Positions 43,860 to 51,239 of a stretch of DNA of 64,000 nucleotides are shown here, piece after piece (within the stretch, counting starts at the first letter, position 1; the number at the start of each line of letters is the position of its first letter). The stretch lies in assembly GCF_009914755.1 (NCBI RefSeq), contig NC_060933.1. One strand, 5' to 3'. The translations under genes were made by a program, and so were the position numbers. This DNA is from the human T2T-CHM13v2.0 reference genome, Homo sapiens. Under the pieces are notes generated by a model, which was not told the DNA's origin, did not search any database, and was given only the letters and a program-made list of their open reading frames with translations.

Positions 43860-44310
43860 TTTCCTCATTTACTGAAGAGTTTGGAATTTTATGACTTGTC
43901 TTCTTGTCGCTTGTCTTATCATCTCTCTTGGTGATGTCATCATCCATGTAGATTACCCACTCATGGCTCTGGCCTCTCACTTACATCCTTAGTTTCACCT
44001 TGGACCTTACTAACCTGTCCTGCTCACCTCTGAAATTTCTTTTTTGACCATCCCACCCTAGGATGCTCACCTCCTCTCTTACCAGCTTACATCCTCTACC
44101 AGACCCATGCCAATAATTCTTTGGCCCAATTATGAACTCCAATTCACTGGGTCTACACATTTGTTCCTTTTCATCACCTCCATCATATCCTCACTTTCCT
44201 CTTACCAGGTGGGTTTCCATGATTTGTTTCATAATCACTCCCTTGCTCCTTCAAATCCCTTGACTCTCTCCATCAAACTCCCCTGGAAAAACTCCAACCC
44301 TAGTCTGCAG
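43860..44310 (+). mobile_element. L2 internal fragment
   Basis: cttggtgatgtcatcatccatgtagat, caccttggacctt, ataatcactcccttgc. Confidence 0.55.
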
Positions 44311-44636
44311 AATTGAGTAGGGGCCATAAGCACAAATTCTCCATATGTGTGAGACGATGTAGCTCCCCAATTAGAATTAGAATTAAAAGCCTAGACAAAT
44401 TCTGAGTGTGGCAACAATTCTTTCCAGCCAATGAGTTGACTGGCTTTTTGTACATGTGTTCTTATATGCAAGTAAAAAAAAAAATAAAGCATTGTTGACT
44501 TAGACAGATTAGGGAAAGGAGATAGGAAACTTATGAAAAATAAGTTTCTGGCTCTAAAACGAATATAGTAATTGGATCTGCTAAAGCAGCGCCAGGGAGA
44601 GGCCAGACAACTTGCATTCAATACATTGCCTGATGA

Positions 44637-44937
<301 letters not shown>

Positions 44938-45723
44938 GAGGATGCTTAATTTCTTAACAGAATCAATCTCTTATTAAAATATCATTCACTATCACCTTGT
45001 TAACTCTCAATATTTAGTTAACAAATTTCTTTGTAGAAAGAGGAGGAAAAGATAAAACTTATGGCACTTTTATGATCATAAAGCTAATAAATGTTCATCA
45101 TAGAAAATTTGAAAAATATAGGCAAGAAATCCCTGGAACAAAGTGAGCACCCAACAGTTAGTTATCTGTCCACATCATTAAAAGTTGTTTTTAAATATTA
45201 TAATGACTGCATCCTACTGATGCTAAAGAGCTAAGATTGAATTATTCCCCTATTATTGGACATTTAAATTGCTTCTTTTTAAAAATTATAAAAGCACTGC
45301 CAAGAATAACTTTGTAAAAACATCAGCGTGCACAATTCTAACTACTGGTTTTTGTTAAATCGAGCTTAAAGGGATATTTTAGTTTTAAGATTTTTGATCT
45401 GCAAATTGGCTTCTTGGAAGCCAATTTGTCTTCCAGGAAGTTTATACCTACTGGTGTTTTCACTCCCAGAGAGGAAGAGTTCTTCGGAGGGCAGACAAAC
45501 ACATAAAGTAGCTTGAAAAAAGTGAGAAGGTTTAAGTTTAGACCAGGCTAACATGGTCCCCTAGGATAAGACTACAGCTCACTCCCTCTCCACAGAGATT
45601 TGCAAGGATCATATGGCTCTGAAAGCTCACAGTGCCGTCCTTCAGCATGTGACAATTGCAAAATCAGCAAACGTCCTGGCCTGGTGCAGATCTCAGCTTC
45701 CCCATCTATACAATGATCTCTCT

Positions 45724-45940
45724 AGCAATGGTTCCCAGACTCAATGACACATGCCTTAAGAACATGTTAAAGTTCACAAAGCGTGCACACACACACACAA
45801 ACACACACATTCATACACATACATACACACAGCCGCATACATTTCTGCATTACTAGACCCACCCTGTAAAGGTCCAGACTCAGTCTTAGACTGGGGCTAG
45901 GAATTCCCATTTTCAACACTCTCCTTGGTAACTGTGGTAC
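45724..45940. mobile_element. MER5-like hAT remnant with internal (CA)n
   Basis: gcaatggttcccagact...ctggggctaggaattcccattttcaaca. Confidence 0.45.
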
Positions 45941-45970
45941 CGAAGAGCCTCTTAGCAGAGCAGGCTTCTG

Positions 45971-46525
45971 AAAAGATTTCTCACTCACTCACTTATTGAC
46001 GGCACTAGTTCCTCAGCTGTGATATTTTCACTAACTTCAGCTTGTCATAAAAATGATCGAAAACTTGGAAATAGGCAAATGAGGATGCTGTATATTCCAT
46101 CATGCAGTGCTGGGTTTGGCCCTCTATTGACAAGAGCTTTTCTACAGCTCGGTAGGGACACAGGATCACTTGCACATTTTCGTCTAATAGAGAGGCAAAA
46201 AACTCCTGTTTGGTGGAAAAGATGGCTCCAAGGATTGAGGCTGATGATGTGTTGGACATTGACCCATTTTGTATCTAACATAGAAATCTATTAAAGTGGT
46301 GTTATGTGCCTGGCTTCTCAATTACTCTCCAGACTGGTCATAGCATCTTACTAACTCCCTAATTAATTAATTAGTTGAATCGGTTCTTTAACATGTGTTC
46401 ATTTTATATTTGTTAGAGTCTAAAAATTATACCTGAACAGTATATCACGTTTTGTTTATCTTTTAAAGGAAAATATGTTTTCTTTAAAATATGGCTAATA
46501 TTAGGCAGCTAAAGTGCTCTCTTTT
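45971..46525. repeat. Left arm of long degenerate inverted repeat
   Basis: Reverse complement of 46950-47189 plus 48544-48743; ORF track shows matching peptides on opposite strands (SLTSACH..NRQMRM..IP.CSAG). Confidence 0.9.
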
Positions 46526-47189
46526 TAAATTTGATGGGGAAAGTTTTGAGAACATTTTTAAGACGAGTGGTACTTAATTTTTTAATGTTACATGATTATT
46601 TTGTCCTCAAACATATTCCAATATCAGTTTCTTTCAATGGATTCTCAAATGCATCTATCTATGTATTTTCATAATCCTGTGGTTTTGTAATCAAAACTAT
46701 TTGTTCCTTGGTTTTTTTCTTCCCTTAAATGTATGTTGACACACAGTTGAATATACAGGGAATGTATTTAGGCCTCCTTATCTACACTCCCCTGGCACTT
46801 CCTTCCTACCTCTAACCTCTGGCCCAAGATAGTAAGTGGCCCATGAGCTGCCCTGCCTTTCCGCTCATCTTTTCATTTGCAATTATAACAACAACAATAA
46901 CTCTTTGATTCAGCACGTACCAGGATTCGGAGAGTGTATGGAGGACTTTTATAGAGATCACCTTGGCTCTCTAATATTAGCCAATGCTGCCTTGTAATTC
47001 ATTAGATGTGACTGAATTTATTAATTCCACCAATACTAATAAACACAAAACAAAACATAGTTTCCTTTAAAAGATAAACAAAACATCACATACTGTTTAG
47101 GTATAATTTTCAGACTCTAATATAAAATGATCATGTGTCAAAGATCTTATTCAACTAATTAATCAATTATGGAACTAGTAAGATGTTAC

Positions 47190-48543
47190 TGAGAGGTGAC
47201 AGCATGCTGGCCGCCCTTGCAGCCCTCGCTCGCTCTCGGCGCCTCTTCTGCCTGGGCTCCCACTTTGACGGCACTTGAGGAGCCCTTCAGCCCACCGCTG
47301 CACTGTGGGAGCTCCTTTCTGGGCTGGCCAAGGCAGGAGCTGGCTCCCTCAGCTTGCAGGGAGGTGTGGAGAGAGAGGCGCCAGCAGGAATCGGGGCTGC
47401 GCACTGCACTTGCGGGTCACCTGGAGTTCTGGGTGGCCGTGGGCTTGGCGGACTCCGCGCTCAGAGCAGCCGGCTAGCGCTGCCGGCCCGGGCAATGAGG
47501 GACTTAGCACCCAGGCCAGCAGCTGTGGAGGGTGTACTGGGTCCCCCAGCAGTGCCGGCCCACCGATGCTGCGCTTGATTTCTCATCAGGCCCTAGCTGC
47601 CTCCCGGCGGGACAGGGCTCGGGACCTGCAGCCCACCATGCCTGAGCCTCCCCCGCTCCATGGGCTCCTGTGCCGCCCGAGCCTCCCCGACGAGCGCTGC
47701 CCCCTACTCCACGGCGCCCAGTCCCATCGACCACCCAAGGGCTGAGGCCTGCAGACACACCGCACAGGACTGGTAGGCAGATCCACTGGGTGAAGCCAGT
47801 GGGGCTCCTGAGTCTGGTGGGGACTTGCAGAACCTTTATGTCTAGCTCAGGGATTGTAAATGCACCAATCAGCACTCTGTATCTAGCTCAAGGTTTGTAA
47901 ACACACCAATCAGCACCCTGTGTCTAGCTCAGGGTTTGTGAATGCACCAATCGACACTCTGTATCTAGCTACTCTGGTGGGGCCTTGGAGAACCTTCATG
48001 TCTAGCTCAGGGATTGTAAACACACCAATCAGCACCCTGTCAAAACAGACCAGTCCACTCTACCAATCAGCAGGATCTGGGTGGGGCCAGATAAGAGAAC
48101 AAAAGCAGGCTGCCCAAACCAGCAGTGGCAACCCGCTCGGGCCCCCTTCCACAGTGTGGAAGCTTTGTTCTTTCGCTCTTTACAATACATCTTGCTACTG
48201 CTCACTCTTTGGGTCCACACTGCTTTTATGAGCTGTAACACTCACTGCGAAGGTCTGCAGCTTCACTCCAGAAGCCGGCGAGACCACAAGCCCACGGGGA
48301 GGAACAAACAACTCCAGACGTGCCGCCTTAAGAGCTGTAACACTCAGCGTAAAGGTCTGCAGCTTCACTCCTGAACCAGCGAGACCACGAACCCACCAGA
48401 AGGAACAAACTCCGAACACATTCGAACATCAGAAGGAACAAACTCTGGACACGTAGCCTTTAAAAGCTGTAACACTCACCGCGAGGGTCCGCGGCTTCAT
48501 TCTTGAAGTCAGTGAGACCAAGAACCCACCAATTCCGGACACA
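47190..48543 (+). mobile_element. ERV9 solo LTR (LTR12C/E-like), 1354 bp
   Basis: tgagaggtgacagc...GC/CpG-rich U3, tandem tctagctcagg..caccaatcagcac repeats, U5 gctgtaacactcac repeats, ...aattccggacaca; 4-bp TSD ttac/ttat. Confidence 0.96.
47830..48110 (+). promoter_or_regulatory. LTR12 U3 enhancer/promoter repeats (CCAAT/NF-Y, GATA)
   Basis: Five ccaat boxes in tandem repeats, gggtgggg box, gataag at ~48090. Confidence 0.75.
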
Positions 48544-48780
48544 TTATGACCAGTCCCTACTGAGCTGTAGAAAGCTCCGTCAGTAGAAGGCCAAGCCCAG
48601 CACTGCATGGTGGAATATGCACCATCCTCATTTGCCTATTTACAAGTTTTGCATCATTTTCATGACAAGCTGAAGTTAATGACAATATCACAGCTAAGAA
48701 ACCAGTGCCATCAATGAGTGAGTGAATGAGTGAGAAATCTTTTATCAAAAATGCGGTGCAGCCTTCTGGGATCAAACACC

Positions 48781-48890
48781 AAAAAAAAAAAAGAGAGAGA
48801 AAAGAAAGAAAAAAGGAAGAAAGACATCAAAAAAGAAAAGAGAGGAAGGAAAGAAGGAAGTGAGAGAAGGAGGGAGGGAATAAAGAAAAA
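48781..48890. repeat. A/G-rich low-complexity tract
   Basis: polyA then (aaag/gaag)-like purine run. Confidence 0.85.
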
Positions 48891-50029
48891 ACCGGGTTGC
48901 CAGTTTTATTCCTCATTCTTCATGCCTAGAATTTGGATTCACCCAACGTATGTTATTTGCTTAGATATTTTATCCAACAGTGTTTATAGTTCTGTCAAAA
49001 TCAAGGCAATTAGGGTTGCATACTAACAGTATCTGAATAAATACAGCATTATGTTGAAAGACTAGAGGAAAGCTAACGTTACTTATGGCTTGTTCATCTA
49101 ACAGTTTTGATGTACATTGATGGCAAACATTCTGTGGTTAAATCAGATATGGTACATGTTCATTGTTAAGATGCTTATTTAAATTACTGCATTTTGGTTT
49201 TGATATATACTTCGCTATTTGGATTTTTACTCCTTTAGAGAAAAGGGCATGACCATTTTTTTGGAAAAATATTGTCATAAGTGTTTCAGGCACAAATGTC
49301 TAAATCCTTCTGACATGAAAGCGATATGTTTAGATTGAAGCTGAGCAGGAAAAGAAATAACCTTATTTTTTCCCTGCTATTTGAAGCAAAAATATTCAGA
49401 CATTTTTAGATGTTTCTAGAATTTATTTTTTTTCTTTTCAATGCAGTTTAAGTTTTCAATTTATATTGATAGAAACAAATTCCAGAAAAAAAAATATATT
49501 TTTTAGGAATGACCAAAGCCATGATAGGTTGGAACAACTGAAAAGAACCAAACAGACATTTGGATGGATGTCACTTATATAAATCTACCTTACAATCCCA
49601 TGAGGGAAAAAAAATTCCTTGGGATATTTCCTGTACTCTTTGGTTTGGCTAACCAGAAGTATCTTCGAAGGAGTCTTTACACTAATACTATAAAATCTCT
49701 AATTTTGGAAGTTAGTGGAAATCAGAATCACAATGCCAACAATAAATGGAAACAAAATAAAATTATTTTTTAAAAGTTTCCCAGTTCCAGCCAACATTTT
49801 AATTATCTAAATGTCAGTGTAAGGAATCTTAACTAAAACATGTCAGCCTTTGAAGAGACAAAACATAGCACCCCATTTAGACTGACAGAGTAGATATTGG
49901 TGTTGACATAGATGAGCTCTCCTGTCCCTTTCATGAATGGCTTCATGTGTGTGGGAGTTGCAAGGAAGAGAAGAATTACTAAAACAGTTTCTTCCACCCC
50001 AAACACTGGAGAAGGATGGCAAAAGGACC

Positions 50030-50190
50030 TGATCATTAATGACAGCCATTATGGCCAGACACTTTACAAACACTATCTCCTTTAATCCTGCCACTCCCTG
50101 TAGGATAAATGTTATCCTCTTCCTTTTAATAAATGAAGAGACCAAGTCTCAGAGAACTTGAACAACTTGCCCAGGATCACATAGGACCAC
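50030..50190 (-). mobile_element. MIR
   Basis: tttaatcctgcc...aatgaagagaccaagtctcagaga...aacttgcccaggatcac. Confidence 0.75.
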
Positions 50191-51239
50191 ACACCAGAAA
50201 CATCAGCATGGTAAAATTCACTTCCATTGAAAACCATTTCTTCCTGTAGACATCCACAGCCTGCTAGACCCTTAGTCAAAGGCTATTGGCCAGCAGAAAA
50301 GCAAAAAAACAACAACAACAACAAAAAATACCTCTTCCATGATCAATCTTTGAACAAGCACAAACCAGGAAAGAGATATGGACTCTGGTGTTCTGACACC
50401 AAGACTTGGATGTTCTAGCATCGCTGCTTCTATGTTCAGTCTGAGGTTCAGAGAAGGCCTGGTTCTCTGAACACATTCACATTCTGGATGTGCCTATATA
50501 TATATACAGGTATGTCTAGGTCCACTATATCTATAGGGAGTACTTAAATCACACATAGTCCTCTCAACTTGAAACACCTCTACCAGTTGTGGAGAGAGCC
50601 ACATTGGACAGGTGTCCATTGTTTTTCTAAGAGCTGCCCCATCTTGGATGTGATGCTAATGGGATGTAATGAGAAAAAAAATCACAAAACAATCACTGAT
50701 CCCCATGAACTGAAAGCTCATATTTTAAATATTCATAATTAAGCATCCCACAGGTACATTACCAATGAGACCTTCCAAATCATAAACAATGACCTGTCAA
50801 AATCAAAAGCTACGACAGAAAAGAAAAACCACAATTTATACAGCTATCCAAAAGCAACAAAAAAGATACAACTAATTCTTGGAAAAACTGACAGGCTAGA
50901 TTTTACTCAAATTTATTTAGACCAAATGGTCTTGAGATGTGGTTAGCTGTGTTGAACTGCTGTTGCCAGGAGCATGAAACTTTGTATGAATTCGTCTGAA
51001 AAAAAAAAAAAAAGCTGCTGTATTTAGTAGGTTTTCATCAGAATCTTAAACACCTTGATCAATAGCTTAATATGGCTCAACTATCTGGAATACAATTTGC
51101 AGGTAAATCAACATGACATGCCTCACAGGGTCCAATTTCTCCAATTAGACATGGCACAGTGCTATATTTGAGTAAGCGGAATGGAAAGATGGTCATTCTT
51201 TACTTCAGCTTTTTCCCAGGCTAACCTCTCAACCATGCT

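What the first reader, a model, noticed from the sequence alone, without database searches (positions are those of the whole stretch)
45971..48743. Cryptic long inverted repeat (foldback structure) hidden by an LTR12 insertion
Seen: 45971-46158 is the reverse complement of 48554-48743 (~88% by eye). Homology continues 46332-46482 vs 47052-47189 once the LTR12 is removed, and again 46492-46525 vs 46950-46983 (tggctaatattag/ctaatattagcca). Each arm has a block the other lacks (~174 bp left, ~65 bp right). Before the LTR12 inserted, this was a ~1.4-kb palindrome with a ~425-bp spacer. Homology ends at the same outer point on both sides. Inference: either (a) a non-autonomous DNA element with very long TIRs (MULE/Foldback-like), (b) a local fold-back inverted duplication, or (c) two head-to-head copies of an old LTR; part of the arm loosely recalls LTR37, but I cannot confirm this. 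If transcribed it could form a long non-Alu dsRNA hairpin.
Basis: partly seen in the sequence, partly recalled or inferred. Interest (0 to 1): 0.72.

Follow-up and report, generated by a model that had tools for sequence, protein, structure and literature searches.

The report
Inverted duplicate of an ancient LTR
A half-kilobase stretch of human chromosome 9 that holds a very old retroviral LTR was copied once, back to front, next to itself, and one copy was later split by a younger ERV9 (LTR12C) LTR; this is an ordinary kind of old rearrangement with no sign of function.

Summary
The inverted repeat is real. The arms are 45971-46522 and 46953-48743, around a 430-bp single-copy spacer. They are 87.9% alike over 355 aligned nt.

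Each arm holds one copy of an ancient LTR-like repeat of about 425 bp with TG...CA ends. At least 37 other copies lie elsewhere in the genome.

The arms also share the non-repeat DNA on both sides of that LTR:
- The 40 nt upstream are 88% alike between the arms, against 26-28% in all other pairs.
- The flank segments hit 0 of 23 other copies.

So the arms descend from one insertion that was duplicated in place. They are neither two insertions nor a long-TIR transposon.

The right arm later lost 175 bp and received a complete 1354-bp solo LTR of ERV9. This LTR carries the roughly 600-bp 5' extension of the LTR12C/D/E group and sits among copies that print calls LTR12C. It has a 4-bp target duplication.

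Rough ages:
- old LTR: 80 My or more
- duplication: 30-67 My
- LTR12C: hominoid, about 20 My

A 16-bp direct repeat bracketing the whole unit is unexplained. No gene, Rfam match or annotated element lies here.

The parts
45955..45970 (.). Left copy of a 16-bp direct repeat that brackets the whole unit (unexplained)
   Evidence: 13 of 16 bases match 48753-48768, with a core of 10 of 11. Such a match arose in 3 of 2000 shuffles and in 15 of 1411 same-spacing controls.
45971..46522 (+). Left arm of the inverted repeat (552 bp), the uninterrupted copy
45971..46042 (+). Shared non-repeat flank on the 5' side of the old LTR (72 nt)
   Evidence: 89.7% alike between the arms. It hits 0 of 23 family loci. 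The 40 nt next to the LTR are 88% alike between arms, against 26-28% in other pairs.
46043..46467 (+). Ancient solo LTR-like repeat, complete copy with TG...CA-type ends; family not named
   Evidence: The 5' end was fixed by pairwise homologies among other copies that all start there. The 3' end comes from alignment A1. At least 37 other genomic hits.
46160..46334 (+). Block X: the part of the old LTR that the right arm has lost (175 bp)
   Evidence: It aligns with other family copies (5 of 23 loci, 62-73%; L006, L017, L019 and L021 span it). The same two bases stand at both edges.
46468..46522 (+). Shared non-repeat flank on the 3' side of the old LTR (46468-46485 and 46492-46522)
   Evidence: 16 of 18 and 26 of 31 bases match between the arms. 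Hits 0 of 23 family loci. None of 1000 shuffles reach the score.
46523..46952 (.). Single-copy spacer (430 bp) with no residual palindromy
   Evidence: Unique in the genome. In the half-against-half inverted comparison, 338 of 500 shuffles reach the score.
46953..47189 (-). Right arm, inner piece. It holds the inner block 46953-46983, the right-only 64 bp 46984-47047, the flank 47048-47065, and the 3' piece of the old LTR 47066-47189.
47186..47189 (.). Target-site duplication of the LTR12, left copy
   Evidence: TTAC here against TTAT at 48544-48547. The unfilled site in the left arm is at 46340-46343.
47190..48543 (+). Solo LTR of ERV9 of the LTR12C/D/E group, closest to copies that print calls LTR12C. 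Complete, 1354 bp. Layout: 5' extension 47190-47812, 41-nt repeats 47813-48040, 74-nt repeats 48222-48529.
   Evidence: 4494 first-look candidates, of which 40 were scored, with full-length matches at 80-88%. Matches named LTR12C copies from base 1. Repeats and motifs. TG...CA ends.
48544..48547 (.). Target-site duplication of the LTR12, right copy
48548..48667 (-). Right arm: 5' piece of the old LTR. The junction of the 175-bp deletion lies between 48552 and 48553.
48668..48743 (-). Right-arm copy of the shared 5' flank (76 nt, with one 4-nt indel against the left arm)
48753..48768 (.). Right copy of the bracketing direct repeat, 9 A-rich nt beyond the arm

Best explanation
An ancient solo LTR (about 425 bp, TG...CA ends) sat here with its host flanks. 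Some tens of millions of years ago a segment of about 0.55 kb was copied once, in inverted orientation, about 430 bp away. The segment held 72 nt of upstream flank, the LTR, and about 55 nt of downstream flank. The result was a 1.4-kb palindrome-like structure with a single-copy spacer.

The most likely route, which is inferred and not shown, is a repair or replication error. In it a 3' end folds back or switches template onto the complementary strand, copies the segment backwards, and rejoins.

The right arm later lost 175 bp of the LTR through a deletion with 2 bp of microhomology. An indel of about 58 bp arose near the inner end. An ERV9 provirus then integrated 9 bp from the deletion junction and collapsed to a solo LTR12C-type LTR. 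That LTR now pushes the outer halves of the arms 2.4 kb apart.

Nothing indicates a present function. The arms could pair if they were transcribed together, but no transcript is known here.
For: Shown:
- The arms are 87.9% alike over 355 aligned nt, K2P 0.134, with equal identity in the LTR part and the flank part.
- The family's 5' end lies at 46043. Homologies among L017, L018, L006, L010, L005 and L020 all begin there, and the upstream DNA differs among them.
- The 40 nt upstream of that end are 88% alike between the arms. They are 26% alike in 28 other-other pairs and 28% alike in 16 arm-other pairs.
- The flank segments of both arms hit 0 of 23 family loci, on both the 5' and the 3' side.
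- The outer arm has only 2 genomic matches, which are the two arms. Block X and the spacer have only themselves.
- None of the 37 other hits is paired, and each of the 16 loci tested has a single site.
- Block X aligns with other family copies, so the left arm is the intact form and the right arm carries a deletion.
- The LTR12 has TG...CA ends and a 4-bp duplication, and the left arm shows the unfilled site. It therefore inserted after the duplication.
- Arm-to-family K2P is 0.40-0.45, three times the arm-to-arm distance.

Known kind: inverted duplications with a non-duplicated spacer formed by fold-back (PMC3907307, passages read).
Against: - A 16-bp direct repeat (13 of 16 bases) brackets the whole unit, abutting it on the left and 9 A-rich nt away on the right. 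It is rare by chance: 3 of 2000 shuffles, 15 of 1411 real-sequence controls. An in-place duplication does not predict it.
- Microhomology at the original junctions cannot be read at 12% divergence.
- No outgroup genome was available. That the structure is derived, which arm is the original, and the ancestral orientation of the spacer are all untested.
- Matches in closed regions of the reference are not shown, so 'no third copy' is not absolute.
Confidence: 0.75

Rival explanations
1. The duplication arose in place, but as a by-product of a micro-inversion. Staggered breaks on either side of the 0.55-kb segment, followed by inversion of segment plus spacer, leave the segment duplicated in inverted orientation at both ends of the inverted piece.
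For: The end product is identical to what is seen: inverted arms around a single-copy spacer. Template switching and micro-inversions between human and chimpanzee are in print (PMC8755829, search listing and abstract only).
Against: Nothing in the human sequence alone separates this from fold-back copying.
Confidence: 0.12
2. The whole unit (both arms, the spacer and a short A-rich tail) was inserted at once into an empty site and made a target-site duplication of 11-16 bp. It could have entered as a retroposed or captured fold-back DNA.
For: Direct repeat 45955-45970 / 48753-48768, 13 of 16 bases. The left copy abuts the arm, and 9 A-rich nt lie between the right arm and the right copy. Seen in 3 of 2000 shuffles.
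Against: - No donor exists: the outer arm, block X and the spacer have no other copy in the genome.
- The repeat does not start with the A-rich target typical of LINE-mediated insertion (recalled).
- A 552-nt overlap of two cDNAs would be far beyond what twin priming is known to give (recalled, not read here).
- 15 of 1411 real-sequence controls show such a repeat by chance.
- The outer flanks match only simple repeats elsewhere, so the test for continuity across an empty site came back blank.
Confidence: 0.07
3. A non-autonomous DNA transposon with very long terminal inverted repeats (MULE or Foldback-like).
For: Long inverted arms. The core of the bracketing direct repeat is 11 bp, within the 9-11 bp range recalled for Mutator-like elements.
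Against: - The termini have no other copy in 3.1 Gb.
- The arms consist of an older LTR with TG...CA ends embedded at the same place with the same flanks.
- No direct repeat abuts both ends, and the right copy is offset by 9-14 nt.
- No ORF longer than 156 aa, and that one lies in the LTR12.
Confidence: 0.03
4. Two independent head-to-head insertions of the same old LTR family, or the two LTRs of one provirus brought head to head by an inversion.
For: Each arm does contain a copy of a dispersed LTR-like family.
Against: - The arms share 72 nt of upstream and about 50 nt of downstream non-family sequence at 84-90% identity.
- Independent insertions would have unrelated flanks.
- The two LTRs of one provirus have host DNA on one side and internal sequence on the other, so they could not share both flanks.
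- Arm-to-arm K2P is 0.134, against 0.40-0.45 to the closest other copies.
Confidence: 0.02

Closest known systems
Fold-back inverted duplications with a non-duplicated spacer (PMC3907307; passages read)
   Same: Two copies in inverted orientation separated by a single-copy spacer. In that study the spacers were 766-70,466 bp; here the spacer is 430 bp.
   Different: Those duplications span kilobases to megabases, lie next to terminal deletions and arose de novo. This one has 0.55-kb arms, is interstitial and is tens of millions of years old. The 2-8 bp inverted microhomology at the spacer edge cannot be read here at 12% divergence.
Template switching at replication forks that gives inverted copies (PMC10766183, PMC10766186) and short templated inverted insertions at breaks (PMC11724301). 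All three seen as search listing and abstract only.
   Same: A nascent strand copies the complementary strand nearby and gives an inverted copy close to its source.
   Different: The yeast break-repair inserts are mostly 5-34 bp and the inverted copy-number variants are large. An intermediate size fixed in a primate lineage is simply a less-described size class.
Solo LTR12C of ERV9 (PMC11853044, PMC8767690; passages read)
   Same: TG...CA ends, about 600-bp GC-rich 5' extension, 41-nt U3 repeats with CCAAT and GATA motifs, longer U5 repeats, full-length likeness to the named LTR12C copies at GBP5, IRGM, RAE1, TNFRSF10B, ZNF80 and GBP2.
   Different: It has few U3 repeats: TRF finds 3.2 units, and five CCAAT boxes lie in or just after the repeats, against the 5-17 repeats in print. 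Its private branch is longer than in 21 of the 22 copies compared. No LTR12E reference copy could be secured, so C against E is not settled.
Long-TIR DNA transposons (MULE, Foldback); features recalled, not from a call
   Same: Long inverted arms around a short middle, and a short direct repeat near both ends.
   Different: Single locus, arms made of an older retroviral LTR plus host flanks, direct repeat not abutting on the right.

Membership tests
ERV9 LTR12, C/D/E group (solo LTR) | LTR ends TG...CA and a short target-site duplication | tested here: met
   Starts TGAGAG and ends GACACA. The flanking 4-mers are TTAC and TTAT, and the unfilled site is seen in the left arm. The 4-bp size for class I ERVs is recalled.
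ERV9 LTR12, C/D/E group (solo LTR) | U3 tandem repeats of about 41 nt with CCAAT, GATA (TCTGTATCTAGCT) and G-rich motifs; longer repeats in U5 (PMC11853044) | tested here: met
   Period 41, 3.2 copies at 47841-47970. A fourth related unit lies at 47973-48040. Six CCAAT, two GATA motifs and one GTGGGGA. Three copies of a 74-nt unit at 48222-48529.
ERV9 LTR12, C/D/E group (solo LTR) | About 600-bp 5' extension, present in LTR12C/D/E and absent from plain LTR12 (PMC8767690) | tested here: met
   All 6 named LTR12C copies align from base 1 at 82-85%. The LTR12 at ADH1C aligns only from about base 600 on. The first 620 nt are 68% G+C.
ERV9 LTR12, C/D/E group (solo LTR) | Subfamily C as against D or E (diagnostic indels, per print) | tested here: inconclusive
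   In a star-like NJ tree of 23 copies, the 6 named LTR12C copies are mixed with this copy's nearest kin. The ZNF80 LTR12C ties for nearest, K2P 0.107. The DHRS2 LTR12D aligns in pieces only. No secure LTR12E reference was found.
ERV9 LTR12, C/D/E group (solo LTR) | Solo state: host DNA on both sides, no internal sequence | tested here: met
   Both sides continue the right arm of the inverted repeat directly after the 4-bp duplication.
   37 other hits. The 5' end is shared by 8 other loci, with 26% identity upstream. The 3' end ...TTTAACA or close variants appears in 8 of 12 other rows of A1.
   No repeat library (Dfam or Repbase) is at hand. Print gives only the name and its grouping with MER4 (PMC5753468).
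   No two of the 37 hits lie within 10 kb of each other.
In-place inverted (fold-back or template-switch) duplication | Both copies include the same non-repeat sequence, and there is no third copy | tested here: met
In-place inverted (fold-back or template-switch) duplication | Single-copy, non-palindromic spacer | tested here: met
In-place inverted (fold-back or template-switch) duplication | Short inverted microhomology at the spacer-arm junction | tested here: inconclusive
   The junction cannot be placed to the base at 12-16% divergence.
In-place inverted (fold-back or template-switch) duplication | Absent (single copy) in an outgroup | not testable with these tools
Long-TIR DNA transposon (MULE or Foldback-like) | Several copies that share the termini | tested here: not met
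   Only the two arms match.
Long-TIR DNA transposon (MULE or Foldback-like) | Target-site duplication abutting both termini | tested here: not met
   The best abutting match is 2 of 5 to 4 of 10 bases. A 16-bp repeat exists but is offset by 9 nt on the right.
Two independent insertions of one LTR family | Unrelated flanks; arms no more alike than random copies | tested here: not met
   Flanks are 88-90% alike. K2P is 0.134 against 0.40-0.45.

The most novel reading that the evidence does not exclude
The 16-bp direct repeat is a true target-site duplication, and the whole 1.4-kb fold-back unit entered this site as one piece. That would make it a single-copy mobile or captured hairpin DNA built from host sequence, with no donor left in the genome. 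Alternatively, the arms have been kept alike because a hairpin RNA made from them is in use.
Probability: 0.06. Interest if true: 0.6.

Novelty: new member of a known kind. Interest (0 to 1): 0.22.

Why it matters
The locus matters little on its own.

It is a clean, dated example of how a small palindrome can arise in a primate genome from ordinary DNA, here an ancient solo LTR with its flanks. It also shows how such a structure is then taken apart by a deletion, an indel and a retroviral insertion.

It carries a practical lesson for annotation. Two inverted copies of one repeat family can be one insertion duplicated, and shared flanks tell the two cases apart.

The LTR12C is of a type often used as a germ-line or drug-induced promoter (PMC11853044). 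It points rightwards through only one half-arm, so it would not by itself make a hairpin RNA.

Tried and rejected
- A local aligner with cheap gaps aligned everything to everything (about 70% identity over about 800 columns in all 24 loci). I discarded it as uninformative and used BLAST with stricter gaps instead.
- The masked-repeat track of the annotation file does not cover the old LTR and carries no names, so it did not help with naming.
- **Clock dating of the LTR12.**
  - The private branch is 0.068-0.070 over all sites and 0.048-0.050 without CpG sites.
  - At 1.0-1.2e-9 per site per year that gives 40-70 My, older than the family itself in print (about 30 My; the 5'-extension group about 20 My).
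  - I therefore reject the absolute clock for this CpG-rich, possibly edited LTR. Private changes run G>A 26.6 against C>T 17.7.
  - I keep only the ranking: its branch is longer than in 21 of the 22 other copies compared.
- **LTR12E reference.**
  - Print places an LTR12E at SORD (PMC6908575).
  - The LTR12 copy I found inside SORD (L046) is in sense orientation, while print speaks of an antisense transcript. I did not take it as the reference.
  - The motif that PMC12587700 ties to LTR12E is present, but that paper's locus counts do not fit the 104 LTR12E copies of PMC8767690. I give it no weight.
- **Test for an interrupted older repeat.** Both outer flanks match only simple repeats elsewhere, so the test is blank.
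- **Residual palindromy of the spacer.** None was found.
- **Other checks.** Rfam at gathering scores gave 0 matches in 45000-49500. ORFs were listed without translation: 8 of 80 aa or more, the longest 156 aa inside the GC-rich LTR12. I did not follow them up.
- **Literature.** I made no literature search for this particular locus and claim nothing about whether it is in print. Tables of LTR12 loci in the supplements of PMC8767690 or PMC6908575 might have settled C against E.
Full report
**1. The observation**

Reading 45700-49000, a repeat search and a minus-strand self-BLAST of 44000-51000 all confirm the inverted repeat.
- The outer block is 45971-46159 against 48743-48553, 87.0% over 193 columns, E 1e-52.
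- The middle block is 46341-46485 against 47188-47048, 84.1% over 145 columns, E 1.6e-35. Read by eye it begins at 46335.
- The inner block is 46492-46522 against 46983-46953, 26 of 31 bases. None of 1000 dinucleotide shuffles reached its score.
- The left arm holds 175 bp (46160-46334) that the right arm lacks. The right arm holds 64 bp (46984-47047) where the left has 6.
- In a self-comparison of the whole window the structure stands alone.
- The spacer 46523-46952 shows no residual palindromy: 338 of 500 shuffles reach its score.

**2. What the arms are made of**

Genome-wide searches of the T2T reference gave these results.
- The outer arm has only two matches, which are the two arms.
- Block X and the spacer have only themselves.
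- The first ~100 bases of the middle block have 37 further matches at 74-84%.

I fetched 24 of these loci. Pairwise BLAST and one alignment show an old dispersed repeat of about 425 bp.
- Its 3' end is the conserved ~100 bases, closing with ...TTTAACA or close variants.
- Its 5' end starts with TGTCAG or close variants.
- Homologies between independent pairs all begin at that point: L017-L018, L006-L018, L017-L020, L010-L017 and L005-L010.
- Three loci begin to match the left arm at 46043, 46045 and 46049.

The family therefore looks like a retroviral LTR with TG...CA ends. All 37 other hits are solitary, with no two within 10 kb of each other. Block X aligns with other copies. So the left arm carries the complete LTR, 46043-46467, and the right arm has lost 175 bp of it. 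The same two bases stand at both edges of the lost block.

**3. The decisive point: shared flanks**

The inverted homology runs 72 nt beyond the LTR's 5' end, 45971-46042. It also runs beyond the LTR's 3' end, through 46468-46485 and 46492-46522.
- These flank segments hit 0 of 23 family loci, while the LTR segments hit 2-23 of 23.
- The 40 nt upstream of the LTR are 26% alike in 28 pairs of other copies and 28% alike in 16 arm-other pairs. They are 88% alike between the two arms.
- Identity between the arms is the same in flank (89.7%) and LTR (89.6% and 86.2%).

The two arms therefore descend from one LTR insertion together with its surroundings. This excludes two independent insertions. It also excludes the two LTRs of one provirus, which could not share both flanks. 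It argues against a transposon whose arms are its own terminal repeats.

**4. Distances and ages**

- *Arm to arm.* 355 aligned nt, 29 transitions, 14 transversions, K2P 0.134. At 2.2e-9, 1.5e-9 and 1.0e-9 per site per year this gives 30, 45 and 67 My.
- *Left-arm LTR to its closest relatives.* K2P 0.40-0.45. Four of 8 compared copies aligned over 200 nt or more; the other four were left out.
- *Other copies among themselves.* K2P 0.30-0.48, from 13 of 28 pairs; 15 pairs were left out for short alignments. That puts the family at roughly 80-100 My or more at 2.2e-9.

The rates are recalled figures. These ages are rough, and only orthologous loci would fix them.

**5. The younger LTR**

*Structure.* 47190-48543 is a complete LTR of 1354 bp.
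- It starts with TG and ends with CA.
- It is flanked by TTAC and TTAT, and the left arm shows the matching unfilled site.
- A genome search gave 4494 first-look candidates. Forty were scored, and many match end to end at 80-88%.

*Features that print gives for ERV9 LTR12* (PMC11853044, passages).
- 41-nt repeats with CCAAT and the GATA motif.
- Longer repeats towards the 3' end.
- A G+C-rich 5' part of about 620 nt.

*Subfamily.* That 5' part is the '~600-bp 5' extension' of LTR12C, D and E (PMC8767690, passages).
- Six copies that the review's Table 1 names LTR12C (GBP5, IRGM, RAE1, TNFRSF10B, ZNF80, GBP2) align from base 1.
- The plain LTR12 at ADH1C aligns only from about base 600.
- In a star-like distance tree of 23 copies the named LTR12C copies are mixed with this copy's nearest kin.
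- I call it LTR12C-type. C against E is not settled, because I found no secure LTR12E reference.

*Age.*
- Print places the extension-bearing group almost only in hominoids, about 20 My (PMC8767690). It places LTR12C/E as absent from macaque (PMC6908575, passages).
- The copy's private branch is 0.068 over all sites and 0.048 without CpG. It is longer than in 21 of the 22 other copies, so it is an old member of the group.
- The absolute clock overshoots the family's age, and I do not use it.
- The LTR sits in one arm only, opposite an unfilled site, so it came after the duplication.

**6. Mechanism**

*Shown.* One ancestral segment now exists as two inverted copies around a single-copy spacer, and there is no donor elsewhere.

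*Inferred.* It arose in place through a fold-back or template switch during repair or replication. Such events are known to leave a non-duplicated spacer (PMC3907307, passages; PMC10766183, PMC10766186 and PMC11724301, listing and abstracts only). A micro-inversion with staggered breaks would give the same product. Only the spacer's orientation in an outgroup can tell the two apart.

Two sequence features lie nearby.
- A polypurine simple repeat lies 28 nt from the right arm (48771-48893).
- A CA repeat lies 140 nt from the left arm (45786-45831).
That such tracts stall forks is recalled knowledge, and any link to this event is speculation.

**7. What does not fit**

A direct repeat brackets the whole unit: 45955-45970, abutting the left arm, and 48753-48768, 9 A-rich nt past the right arm. 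Thirteen of 16 bases match, with a core of 10 of 11. A match that good occurred in 3 of 2000 shuffles of the flanks and in 15 of 1411 same-spacing controls in the window.

It looks like a target-site duplication of the entire unit. That would mean insertion as one piece, yet no donor copy exists. The repeat also does not abut the right end. The outer flanks match only simple repeats elsewhere, so I could not test continuity across an empty site. I leave it unexplained and give unit insertion 0.07.

**8. Function**

- No gene lies in the window. The nearest annotated gene is a lncRNA 38 kb away, and the nearest protein-coding gene is 307 kb away.
- No annotated functional element lies in 43-52 kb.
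- Rfam gives no match at gathering scores.
- No ORF exceeds 156 aa.
- On paper the arm halves pair strongly: 173 and 122 intermolecular pairs, far below shuffled partners in energy.
- The LTR12 faces right and would transcribe only the outer half of the right arm, so it cannot make the hairpin alone.

I see no evidence of a present role.

**9. Verdict**

The thing itself is an ordinary, old, small inverted duplication of an ancient solo LTR, later hit by a hominoid LTR12C-type solo LTR. 

Noticed in passing
window 45955-45970 and 48753-48768: A 16-bp direct repeat (13 of 16 bases) brackets the whole inverted repeat. It abuts the arm on the left and lies 9 A-rich nt away on the right. It is rare by chance (3 of 2000 shuffles, 15 of 1411 real controls) and unexplained.
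   Followed up: partly
window 48771-48893 and 45786-45831: A polypurine (AAAG/AGGA-type) simple repeat lies 28 nt right of the right arm. A degenerate CA repeat lies 140 nt left of the left arm.
   Followed up: no
window 46541-46578: A weak match inside the spacer to the reverse complement of the arm around the old LTR's 5' end (46032-46066, and 48644-48680 directly). The score was reached by 12 of 200 and 4 of 200 shuffles. It may be chance.
   Followed up: partly
window 48552/48553 and 48543: The junction of the 175-bp deletion in the right arm lies only 9 bp from the end of the LTR12. There is no evidence that the two events are linked.
   Followed up: no
window 47190-48543: Private changes of this LTR12 copy are dominated by G>A (26.6) over C>T (17.7). 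These are mean counts over pairs of other copies. The plus-strand G>A excess fits the APOBEC3-type editing that the review PMC11853044 reports for LTR12C.
   Followed up: partly
L001 (chr2:112.04 Mb) and L002 (chr2:87.25 Mb): The two 3-kb loci are 98.8% identical in inverted orientation over their full length. They are part of a recent segmental duplication on chromosome 2.
   Followed up: no
one search hits on chr13, 14, 15, 20, 21, 22 (short arms and pericentromeres): Fourteen of the 37 other hits of the old LTR have the same extent and 77-78% identity. This looks like one copy spread by acrocentric and pericentromeric segmental duplications.
   Followed up: no
L005 1-421 (chr10:115.94 Mb): An LTR12 U5-like piece (83% to window 48140-48549) lies about 1.1 kb from another copy of the old LTR. 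This is probably a coincidence.
   Followed up: no
L046 (chr15:42842673-42844286, inside SORD): An LTR12 copy 87% like the window's lies in sense orientation in SORD. Print describes an antisense LTR12E-initiated transcript at this gene (PMC6908575). Whether it is the same LTR is unresolved.
   Followed up: partly
window 44656-44930: A ~275-bp repeat has four or five further copies in the window at 74-80% identity. It is probably an Alu, but that name is recalled and not tested.
   Followed up: no
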